IMG/VR virus record: IMGVR_UViG_3300010391_001881
Strand: one strand, 5' to 3'
DNA from: a virus
DNA: 15,702 nt
A program made the translations under genes and the position numbers. How positions within the stretch are numbered: the stretch's first letter is position 1; each line of letters begins with the position of its first letter. Positions 6,204 to 6,278 of this stretch are shown piece after piece. Below the pieces are notes generated by a model. The model ran no database searches. It saw only the letters and a list, made by a program, of their open reading frames with translations, and was not told where the DNA came from.

Positions 6204-6278
6204 TTGGTCTCCGAAGGGGCTCGAACCCTCACTGACGCTGTTTTAGAGACAGCCGCTCTGCCATTGAGCTACGGAGAC
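6204..6278 (-). tRNA. Amber suppressor tRNA (anticodon CTA, reads UAG); amino-acid identity undetermined
   Basis: Acceptor GTCTCCG/CGGAGAC is perfect, D arm GCTC-AATGGCA-GAGC, anticodon stem GCTGT/ACAGC, loop CTCTAAA (U33, A37), T arm GAGGG-TTCGAGC-CCCTT, discriminator C. Confidence 0.75.

What the first reader, a model, noticed from the sequence alone, without database searches (positions are those of the whole stretch)
6204..6278. Amber suppressor tRNA (anticodon CUA) inside the array, although TAG is still used as a stop
A well-formed tRNA has the anticodon loop CTCTAAA and would decode UAG. In this window TAG terminates only 3 of about 24 ORFs (TGA 12, TAA 9), two of them inside tRNA overlaps. 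That is compatible with a phage that suppresses or recodes amber, as in Lak or crAss-like code 15, or that manipulates host termination. The amino-acid identity cannot be read from the sequence (discriminator C).
Basis: seen in the sequence. Interest (0 to 1): 0.7.

Follow-up and report, generated by a model that had tools for sequence, protein, structure and literature searches.

The report
Amber suppressor tRNA in standard-code phage
A large T4-like phage carries a real, evolutionarily conserved tRNA that reads the UAG stop codon, yet the phage and its relatives still use UAG as a normal stop, so this is a known kind of phage suppressor tRNA and not evidence of a changed genetic code.

Summary
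Window 6206..6278 (minus strand) encodes a canonical 73-nt tRNA with anticodon CUA at positions 34-36, discriminator C73 and no encoded CCA (ARAGORN; Rfam tRNA model 58.2 bits). It lies in an array of 19 tRNAs in the window, 26 on the reconstructed 24.7-kb source locus.

It is functional-looking, not a relic. The same tRNA sits at the syntenic position in related phage contigs (77.6 kb and 278 kb). The anticodon loop is conserved, and 9 of 21 stem pairs show compensatory double changes.

The code-15 reading is not supported:
- TAG ends 16-20% of called genes in all three genomes that carry the tRNA.
- TAG stops swap with TAA/TGA at the same residue in orthologs.
- An isochorismatase-family gene ends at TAG with a full-length domain match.
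- In the 278-kb relative, the portal, prohead protease and capsid genes have no in-frame TAG.
- No RF1/RF2 gene was found in the held regions.

CUA tRNAs are already known in recoded phages and in cultured standard-code phages. Verdict: a new member of a known kind, most likely a partial amber suppressor in a standard-code background. The inserted amino acid (Gln or Lys most plausible) and the selective benefit are unresolved. The phage's own late genes were not available.

The parts
6206..6278 (-). tRNA with anticodon CUA (amber suppressor type), 73 nt, discriminator C73, no encoded CCA
   Evidence: ARAGORN. Rfam RF00005 58.2 bits. Cloverleaf minimum-free-energy fold. Syntenic orthologs with 9 of 21 compensatory stem pairs.
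6244..6246 (-). Anticodon CUA (positions 34-36) inside the 7-nt loop CUCUAAA, with U33 and A36-A37-A38
   Evidence: Read from the sequence and the cmscan alignment. The loop is invariant in L035-L037 and is UUCUAAA in L038.
6283..6302 (-). 8-bp hairpin (UAGAGGAC-UCCG-GUCCUCUA) ending 4 nt upstream of the tRNA 5' end. It is terminator-like or a processing element for the upstream gene.
   Evidence: Terminator-like scan. A hairpin at the same place is present in L035 and L038.
6310..6645 (-). Conserved 111-aa gene of unknown function immediately upstream of the tRNA, used as the synteny anchor
   Evidence: 58 homologs. The orthologs in L035-L038 are followed by a CUA tRNA.
289..9397 (-). Array of 19 tRNA genes interleaved with small ORFs, all on the minus strand. 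It continues beyond the window start, giving 26 tRNAs on the 24.7-kb merged locus.
14473..15090 (-). Isochorismatase-family gene that ends in TAG (14473-14475). This is direct evidence that TAG is a genuine terminator here.
   Evidence: Pfam PF00857 matches profile positions 1-174 of 175 within residues 3-202 of 205. The homolog in L017 ends at the same place with TAA.
5874..6194 (-). 106-aa ORF directly downstream of the CUA tRNA. Its TAG stop (5874-5876) lies inside tRNA-Arg(UCU).
   Evidence: The C-terminal 66 aa are conserved in L035-L037 and also end at a TAG.
350..739 (-). 129-aa ORF whose TAG stop (350-352) is U8-A9-G10 of tRNA-Lys(UUU)

Best explanation
This is a genuine phage-encoded amber suppressor tRNA kept by selection in the large tRNA array of a T4-like (gp23-type capsid) phage lineage that uses the standard genetic code.

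Shown:
- It has a canonical cloverleaf with CUA at positions 34-36.
- It is conserved at a syntenic position in diverged relatives, with compensatory stem changes and an invariant anticodon.
- TAG functions as a normal terminator in this phage region, and in early and head-module genes of relatives that carry the same tRNA.

Inferred:
- It is transcribed with the same-strand array.
- Host RNase P and 3' processing enzymes cut it out, and the host adds CCA, because none is encoded.
- A37 is probably isopentenylated, because A36-A37-A38 is the MiaA motif.
- A host synthetase that relies on U35 charges it. From classical E. coli work on CUA-anticodon tRNAs, GlnRS or LysRS are the likeliest, so Gln or Lys would be inserted.
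- It competes with RF1 at UAG, producing partial read-through and not a codon reassignment.

The benefit is most likely one or more of the following: short C-terminal extensions of TAG-terminated proteins are tolerated (median 8 codons to the next stop); amber nonsense mutations are buffered; host termination is perturbed. This matches the 'suppressor acquired before recoding' state proposed for standard-code relatives of recoded phages.
For: The tRNA is real.

Selection:
- Orthologs sit after the same Cpn10-137aa-111aa gene string in L035/L036/L037 (flanking protein 80% identical) and in L038 (68%, on a 278-kb contig).
- All 63 stem cells pair, and 9 of 21 pairs have changes on both sides. 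0 of 500 shuffles reach this, and slid controls give 0-2.
- The tRNA is not a recent copy of any co-resident isoacceptor (at most 71% identity).

Standard code:
- Stop usage is TAA/TGA/TAG = 21/17/7 (source locus), 24/9/7 (L035), 22/13/9 (L038) and 14/13/5 (head module, L043).
- A TAG-terminated 109-aa gene has orthologs that end at the same residue with TGA (L035) and TAA (L038). The vault-like gene ends in TGA here and in TAG in L002-L004.
- The isochorismatase gene ends at TAG with a full domain match.
- Read-through length after TAG (median 8 codons) is like that after TAA/TGA (9-10).
- The only TAG-bridged ORF pair is at chance level.
- The portal (1000 aa), prohead protease (ends in TAG) and capsid of the 278-kb phage that carries the tRNA have no in-frame TAG. 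The capsid is split by a 1.3-kb insert that changes frame, not by a stop codon.
- The head module of the 78%-related L002 phage is also intact.

Bacterial host:
- The other tRNAs in the array follow bacterial identity rules: Tyr has a long variable arm and A73, Trp and Asn have G73, Gly has U73, and His has G-1 with C73.

Precedent:
- CUA tRNAs are annotated in cultured phages, all isolated on ordinary cultured hosts (mycobacteriophages, Aeromonas and Sinorhizobium phages; standard-code status from prior knowledge, not tested here), and are present in many large IMG/VR contigs.
- The literature model is in bioRxiv 10.1101/2021.08.26.457843.
Against: - The late genes of the window's own phage were not available, so absence of recoding there is inferred from relatives.
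- In surveys of gut phages, CUA suppressor tRNAs are strongly associated with TAG recoding.
- Pooled over 161 genes, TAG is mildly under-used (17% against a 24% triplet background, P = 0.02), which is the direction expected for a pre-recoding state.
- Expression, aminoacylation and suppression have not been shown.
- C73 without G-1 matches no standard bacterial identity set. The L038 ortholog has A73 and a different acceptor stem, so charging could be weak or could differ between hosts.
- The tRNA sits just after a terminator-like hairpin, which could limit its expression.
Confidence: 0.7

Rival explanations
1. The phage is partly recoded (code 15-like). Late, structural or lysis genes outside the sampled regions contain in-frame TAG codons, and this tRNA, made from the early array, switches on their translation later in infection (the Borges et al. 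model).
For: There is a strong statistical link between CUA tRNAs and TAG recoding in gut and jumbo phages. In that model the early regions are compatible with the standard code, so the window cannot exclude it. Conservation of the tRNA under selection calls for a benefit. TAG is mildly under-used overall.
Against: - TAG terminates 16-20% of genes in all three loci that carry the tRNA.
- The head module of the 278-kb relative that carries the tRNA has intact portal, protease and capsid genes, and TAG is used as a stop there.
- No RF2 gene is present in the held regions.
- GC content is 38%, not the very low GC typical of recoded lineages.
Confidence: 0.17
2. The tRNA does not act in decoding. 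It could be an uncharged or poorly charged RNA kept for another role, such as a decoy or sponge for host tRNA-targeting nucleases or modification enzymes, or a processing or structural element of the array transcript.
For: C73 without G-1 fits no known bacterial identity set, and the discriminator and acceptor stem differ in L038. Phage tRNA arrays are discussed as counter-defence against anticodon nucleases.
Against: The anticodon CUA and the UNN-decoder loop context (U33, A37, A38) are strictly conserved while the stems co-vary. That pattern is expected for selection on decoding. No host tRNA reads UAG, so there is no host tRNA to replace or mimic.
Confidence: 0.08
3. C34 is modified (lysidine- or agmatidine-like, or another modification), so the tRNA reads a codon other than UAG, for example UAA.
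For: None directly. The array also has an unusual tRNA-Ile(UAU), which shows non-standard decoding solutions in this phage.
Against: The tRNA body is unlike tRNA-Ile2. No modification enzyme gene is present in the held regions. The loop is the classical amber-suppressor loop.
Confidence: 0.03
4. It is a pyrrolysine tRNA, as labelled by ARAGORN.
For: The ARAGORN label 'tRNA-Pyl', which is simply its name for any CUA anticodon.
Against: It has a canonical D loop with GG, a T loop UUCGAGC, a 5-bp anticodon stem and a 6-nt variable loop. These are not the compact tRNA-Pyl architecture. No pylS or pylBCD genes are in the locus.
Confidence: 0.01

Closest known systems
CUA suppressor tRNAs of TAG-recoded phages (Lak megaphages, crAss-like phages, recoded jumbo phages; genetic code 15)
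   Same: A phage-encoded tRNA with anticodon CUA, located among other phage tRNAs in a large phage genome and predicted to be charged by a host synthetase.
   Different: Here TAG remains a normal terminator (16-20% of genes). Orthologs swap TAG with TAA/TGA. Head genes of a relative that carries the tRNA have no in-frame TAG. No RF2 gene is seen.
CUA tRNAs annotated as tRNA-Pyl/OTHER/TERM in cultured phages (about 155-kb Mycobacterium smegmatis phages, Aeromonas phages AhSzq-1/Akh-2, Sinorhizobium phage Phosso)
   Same: An amber-suppressor-type tRNA inside a multi-tRNA phage genome isolated on an ordinary cultured host. The anticodon arm and D arm are similar at 77-84%. The function in those phages is also unknown. 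That these phages use the standard code is prior knowledge, not tested here.
   Different: The match covers only the generic arms, and the acceptor stems are unrelated. This lineage is an uncultured T4-like phage, and here conservation with covariation across diverged relatives is shown.
Standard-code relatives of recoded phages that have acquired a suppressor tRNA (proposed pre-recoding intermediate; Borges et al., bioRxiv 10.1101/2021.08.26.457843)
   Same: A suppressor tRNA is present while the genome still uses the standard code.
   Different: That example concerns a TGA suppressor in Agate phages. No recoded sister lineage of the present phage has been identified.
Laboratory amber suppressors (E. 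coli supE and su7; phage T4 psu mutants)
   Same: The same anticodon and the same CUCUAAA-type loop. The mechanism is competition with RF1 (own knowledge; T4 suppressor cited in PMC8386662).
   Different: Those are single-step anticodon mutants of resident tRNA genes. This tRNA is not close to any co-resident isoacceptor (at most 71%) and is conserved in nature.

Membership tests
Canonical elongator tRNA (Rfam RF00005) | Covariance-model score above the curated threshold over the full model | tested here: met
   58.2 bits against a gathering score of 29, model positions 1-71 of 71.
Canonical elongator tRNA (Rfam RF00005) | Cloverleaf with 7/4/5/5-bp stems and conserved U8, A14, G18G19, U33, T54-T55-C56 and A58 | tested here: met
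   Sequence reading, cmscan alignment and minimum-free-energy fold.
Canonical elongator tRNA (Rfam RF00005) | Stems maintained by compensatory change in orthologs | tested here: met
   9 of 21 pairs changed on both sides and 100% of cells paired; 0 of 500 shuffles reach this. Only 3 distinct sequences were available.
Amber suppressor tRNA | CUA at positions 34-36 of a 7-nt anticodon loop, with U33 and a purine at 37 | tested here: met
   The loop is CUCUAAA and is conserved in orthologs.
Amber suppressor tRNA | Is expressed, aminoacylated and inserts an amino acid at UAG | not testable with these tools
   This needs tRNA sequencing or charging assays, or a reporter assay.
Code-15 (TAG reassigned) phage system | In-frame TAG codons inside conserved genes, especially structural and lysis genes | tested here: not met
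   None in the 24.7-kb source locus. None in the portal, protease or capsid of the 278-kb relative that carries the tRNA. The phage's own late genes were not available.
Code-15 (TAG reassigned) phage system | TAG absent or nearly absent as a terminator | tested here: not met
   TAG ends 7/45, 7/40, 9/44 and 5/32 genes. Orthologous stops interchange.
Code-15 (TAG reassigned) phage system | Accessory code-change genes (RF2, dedicated synthetase); frequent but not universal | tested here: not met
   No class-I release factor or aaRS is present in any held region. Only PTH2 and a GGQ-only 113-aa protein in L038 were found. Only part of each genome was seen.
tRNA-Pyl | Compact architecture (short D loop without GG, 6-bp anticodon stem, 3-nt variable loop) together with pylS/pylBCD genes | tested here: not met
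   Canonical D and T loops, a 5-bp anticodon stem and a 6-nt variable loop. No pyl genes.
Bacterial tRNA-His-type identity (suggested by C73) | G-1 paired with C73 | tested here: not met
   Position -1 is U in the window and in L035. The phage's own tRNA-His has an encoded G-1 and C73.

The most novel reading that the evidence does not exclude
A lineage of standard-code T4-like large phages keeps a dedicated amber suppressor as a host-takeover or translation-control device. It drives read-through of UAG-terminated host (or competitor) mRNAs, or of a few phage genes. The phage's own peptidyl-tRNA hydrolase or ribosome-rescue genes (PTH2 in this phage, an ArfB-like GGQ protein in the 278-kb relative) deal with the stalled ribosomes that read-through and tRNA excision from ORF-bearing transcripts would create. 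This would be a stable functional state, not a mere stepping stone to code 15.
Probability: 0.15. Interest if true: 0.6.

Novelty: new member of a known kind. Interest (0 to 1): 0.3.

Why it matters
Suppressor tRNAs are often taken as a flag for alternative genetic codes when phage metagenomes are annotated. This case shows a conserved CUA tRNA under purifying selection in a lineage where TAG is demonstrably still a stop, in early genes and in head genes alike. It is a caution against inferring code 15 from the tRNA alone. It also adds a documented example of the little-understood class of suppressor tRNAs in standard-code phages. If the benefit of this tRNA were worked out, it would bear on how stop-codon reassignment starts. 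In itself the finding is not surprising to specialists.

Tried and rejected
- Nucleotide search of the whole window against GenBank phages found only a generic tRNA-Ala match.
- Exact 35-nt and 33-nt tRNA patterns found nothing in viral or metagenome contigs. The one bacterial-genome match was a tRNA-Thr(CGU) that shares only the generic D arm and anticodon stem, so it says nothing about identity.
- Viral contigs with an identical anticodon arm, or the same D arm and loop, turned out to be unrelated CUA tRNAs with different acceptor stems. They are useful only to show that the class is widespread.
- The IMG/VR relatives found through the vault-like protein (L002-L004) and through the macro-domain protein (L016-L020) lack the array. 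The metagenome relatives L023 and L029 end before the position of the CUA tRNA.
- More distant homologs of the flanking gene (L039, L041) have no CUA tRNA.
- LR756500 (vault-like protein 45% identical) has no tRNA within 20 kb of that gene.
- I tried to infer the amino acid from the nearest isoacceptor. No co-resident tRNA exceeds 71% identity, and the best outside matches are generic Asn/Ala/Ile bodies. Ancestry is unresolved. His identity is rejected (no G-1). Tyr, Ser and Leu of bacterial type are rejected (no long variable arm). Ala is rejected (C3-G70).
- I considered the isochorismatase-TAG-thymidylate-synthase-like in-frame arrangement as programmed read-through. I rejected it as at chance level, and L035 lacks the isochorismatase gene.
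- The T4 late-promoter motif TATAAATA is absent from the window, and no sigma-70-like site lies upstream of the tRNA.
- I could not reach the capsid region of the 77.6-kb contig through the viral collection.
- The six-frame ORF-coverage comparison of codes did not discriminate between them.

Full report
**1. Observation.** ARAGORN finds 19 tRNA genes in the window, all on the minus strand between 289 and 9397. One of them, at 6206..6278, has anticodon CUA; ARAGORN labels it 'Pyl', its default name for that anticodon. The Rfam tRNA covariance model independently finds the same 19 genes. The CUA tRNA scores 58.2 bits against a gathering score of 29, E = 1.4e-10, over the full model, and ranks in the middle of the array.

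Read on the minus strand, the sequence is GUCUCCG-UA-GCUC-AAUGGCA-GAGC-G-GCUGU-CUCUAAA-ACAGC-GUCAGU-GAGGG-UUCGAGC-CCCUU-CGGAGAC-C. This is a canonical cloverleaf with U8, A14, GG in the D loop, U33, CUA at 34-36, A37-A38, and a TTC T loop. The discriminator is C73, the base at -1 is U, and no CCA is encoded. The minimum-free-energy fold is that cloverleaf.

Otherwise the description is correct. The stop-codon tally is also approximately right. There are three TAG stops in the window. Two of them lie inside downstream tRNA genes: 350-352 is U8-A9-G10 of tRNA-Lys, and 5874-5876 is in the D loop of tRNA-Arg.

**2. What genome is this?** There is no close GenBank phage. Exact protein look-ups show that the window overlaps two Logan contigs of run SRR6159086. 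Merging them gives a 24.7-kb locus with 45 independently called genes and 26 tRNAs. The added part holds tRNAs Lys, Ala(GGC), Phe, Cys, Arg(UCG), His and Pro(UGG), together with NADAR, HNH and PTH2 genes.

Genes in the window include:
- a DHH phosphoesterase;
- an isochorismatase-family protein;
- a thymidylate-synthase-like protein;
- an 847-aa protein with Major Vault Protein shoulder and SPFH domains;
- an endonuclease VII-like protein;
- a macro-domain phosphatase;
- a Cpn10 homolog.

The vault-like protein has 70-80% identical homologs on IMG/VR and metagenome contigs, and 45-48% identical homologs in the complete huge-phage genomes LR756500/501/503. One 78%-related contig carries a T4 gp23-type major head protein (phrog_138, PF07068). 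The lineage is therefore a T4-like large phage.

The other tRNAs of the array obey bacterial identity rules: Tyr has a long variable arm and A73, Trp and Asn have G73, Gly has U73, and His has an encoded G-1 with C73. Genes have Shine-Dalgarno-like AGGAG motifs upstream, seen in the sequence. The host is therefore a bacterium.

**3. Is the tRNA maintained by selection?** The 111-aa gene just upstream (6310..6645) has 58 homologs. On the contigs that carry the closest ones, the same gene string (macro, Cpn10, 137 aa, 111 aa) is followed by a CUA tRNA:
- L035 (JGI contig, 77.6 kb), L036 and L037, where the flanking protein is 80% identical;
- L038 (ENA scaffold, 278 kb), where it is 68% identical.

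Between the window and L035, the anticodon stem changes U31-A39 to C31-G39 and the T stem changes G51-C63 to A51-U63. The loop CUCUAAA and C73 stay fixed. L038 keeps the D arm and the loop UUCUAAA, but its acceptor stem is different, though still fully paired, and it has A73.

Counted on the cloverleaf, all 63 stem cells pair and 9 of 21 pairs carry changes on both sides. No shuffle out of 500 reaches this, and slid controls give 0-2. This rests on only three distinct sequences.

The tRNA is not a recent anticodon mutant of a neighbour, since its best match to a co-resident tRNA is 67-71% identity. More distant homologs of the flanking gene lack it. A hairpin 4-5 nt upstream of the tRNA is present in all three lineages.

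**4. Does this lineage read TAG as sense?** All available evidence says no.

(a) Stop usage of called genes:

| Locus | TAA | TGA | TAG | TAG share |
|---|---|---|---|---|
| Source locus | 21 | 17 | 7 | 16% |
| L035 | 24 | 9 | 7 | 17.5% |
| L038 | 22 | 13 | 9 | 20% |

Against a 24% share of TAG among off-frame stop triplets, none of these is individually significant. Pooled, the figure is 17% with P = 0.02, the mild under-use that is usual for TAG.

(b) The isochorismatase gene ends at TAG with a Pfam match to profile positions 1-174 of 175.

(c) Orthologs interchange stops at the same residue. A TAG-terminated 109-aa gene of the source contig ends with TGA in L035 and TAA in L038. The vault-like gene ends in TGA here and in TAG in L002-L004.

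(d) Reading TAG as sense lengthens no conserved gene. The single TAG-bridged ORF pair (isochorismatase, 9 codons, TS-like gene) is what chance predicts, and L035 lacks the isochorismatase gene.

(e) The distance to the next in-frame stop after TAG (median 8 codons) equals that after TAA or TGA (9-10 codons).

(f) Late genes. Using the capsid protein as a probe, I recovered the head module of the same 278-kb contig that carries the orthologous CUA tRNA.
- The portal (1000 aa, with an intein), a 423-aa protein, the prohead protease (207 aa, ending in TAG), a 320-aa protein and the gp23-type capsid have no in-frame TAG.
- Stops in the module are TAA 14, TGA 13 and TAG 5.
- The capsid gene is split, but by a 1.3-kb insert carrying a 303-aa ORF, with the two parts in different frames. 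This looks like an intron, not read-through.
- The head module of the L002 phage is likewise intact.

(g) No RF1 or RF2 gene is present in any held region. There is only PTH2 in the source contig (E = 3e-33) and a 113-aa GGQ-only RF-1-domain protein in L038.

The remaining gap is that the window phage's own late genes could not be retrieved.

**5. Amino-acid identity.**
- C73 in bacteria is characteristic of tRNA-His, but G-1 is absent here, whereas the phage's real tRNA-His has it.
- The short variable region excludes bacterial Tyr, Ser and Leu types.
- C3-G70 excludes Ala.
- The body is unlike the Gln, Trp, Lys and Glu tRNAs of the same or related genomes.
- The D arm and anticodon stem are generic; they recur in a tRNA-Thr of a Bryobacterales MAG.

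From classical E. coli work (my own knowledge, also summarised in the discussion read), CUA-anticodon tRNAs without strong acceptor determinants are mostly charged by GlnRS or LysRS through U35. Gln or Lys is therefore the best guess, but it is not shown. The change from C73 to A73 in L038 suggests that the discriminator is not a fixed determinant, or that hosts differ.

**6. Comparison with known systems.** CUA tRNAs are a recognised feature of TAG-recoded phages. They were detected in about 40% of TAG-recoded gut phages and in many recoded jumbo phages. They also occur in standard-code relatives, where suppressor acquisition is proposed to precede recoding.

BLAST of this tRNA against GenBank phages hits annotated CUA tRNAs ('tRNA-Pyl', 'tRNA-OTHER', 'tRNA-TERM') in cultured phages isolated on ordinary hosts: about 155-kb Mycobacterium smegmatis phages, Aeromonas phages and Sinorhizobium phage Phosso. 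It also hits an uncultured 595-kb phage. That the cultured phages use the standard code is my prior knowledge, not something tested here.

Pattern searches find further CUA tRNAs in arrays on IMG/VR contigs of up to 532 kb, one of which has two in tandem. The literature treats their role in standard-code phages as open. Suggested roles are relief of nonsense mutations, interference with host expression, and support of alternative codes. The present tRNA is a member of this known class. It fails the defining tests for a code-15 system and for tRNA-Pyl.

The most likely reading is a functional, selectively maintained amber suppressor acting by partial competition with RF1 in a standard-code T4-like large phage (confidence about 0.7). 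The main rival is partial recoding of unsampled late genes (about 0.17). The finding is a new member of a known kind, of modest interest. Its main value is as a documented case where a conserved suppressor tRNA coexists with normal use of TAG as a stop.

Noticed in passing
window 10792-13335 (-): An 847-aa phage protein with Major Vault Protein shoulder, vault-repeat and SPFH/Band-7 domains (Pfam). It matches solved Major Vault Protein chains at E about 1e-11 over residues 462-809. It is conserved at 45-80% identity in huge-phage genomes LR756500/501/503 and in many environmental contigs. A vault-like protein in phages may deserve its own look.
   Followed up: partly
window 9309-9396 (-): tRNA-Trp(CCA) carries a 14-nt insertion in the variable region, which is unusual for a class I tRNA (Rfam 47.3 bits). 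The Trp tRNA of the relative L035 is a normal 74 nt.
   Followed up: partly
window 9223-9294 (-): tRNA-Ile with anticodon UAU would read AUA without the lysidine-modified CAU tRNA that bacteria normally use. It is also present in relatives L023, L029 and L035.
   Followed up: no
window 350-352 and 5874-5876 (-); L022 15314-15760; L038 2627-2968: Two ORFs end at TAG triplets that belong to the next tRNA gene, so excision of the tRNA would leave mRNAs without a stop codon. The source contig encodes a PTH2 peptidyl-tRNA hydrolase (E = 3e-33), and the 278-kb relative encodes a 113-aa GGQ-only RF-1-domain (ArfB-like) protein next to its tRNA array. A possible link to ribosome rescue was not tested.
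   Followed up: partly
window 13534-15090 (-): The isochorismatase gene's TAG stop is followed by 9 sense codons and then, in the same frame, the thymidylate-synthase-like gene. Read-through would make a 518-aa fusion protein. I judged this to be chance, because one arrangement in three would be in frame and L035 lacks the first gene.
   Followed up: yes
L043 8368-11290: In the 278-kb relative, the gp23-type capsid gene is interrupted after about residue 71 by a 1.3-kb insert that contains a 303-aa ORF with no Pfam match. The portal gene contains an intein. This is probably a self-splicing intron with its own ORF.
   Followed up: partly
window 6283-6302 (-); L035 about 10339-10357; L038 about 10910-10937: A stable hairpin ends 4-5 nt upstream of the CUA tRNA in all three lineages, with different sequences. 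It may be a terminator for the upstream gene or a processing signal.
   Followed up: partly
L022 about 14190-14240: A stretch resembling the 5' half of a tRNA-His (D arm and a loop with GTG) lies about 170 nt upstream of the intact tRNA-His gene. I saw this by eye in the sequence. It may be a truncated duplicate.
   Followed up: no
L051 7920-8067: A 532-kb IMG/VR contig carries two different CUA tRNAs in tandem.
   Followed up: no
window 13534-14445 (-): The thymidylate-synthase-like protein matches PF00303 only weakly (E = 2e-10, partial). It could be a deoxynucleotide hydroxymethylase of the kind T4-like phages use for base modification.
   Followed up: no
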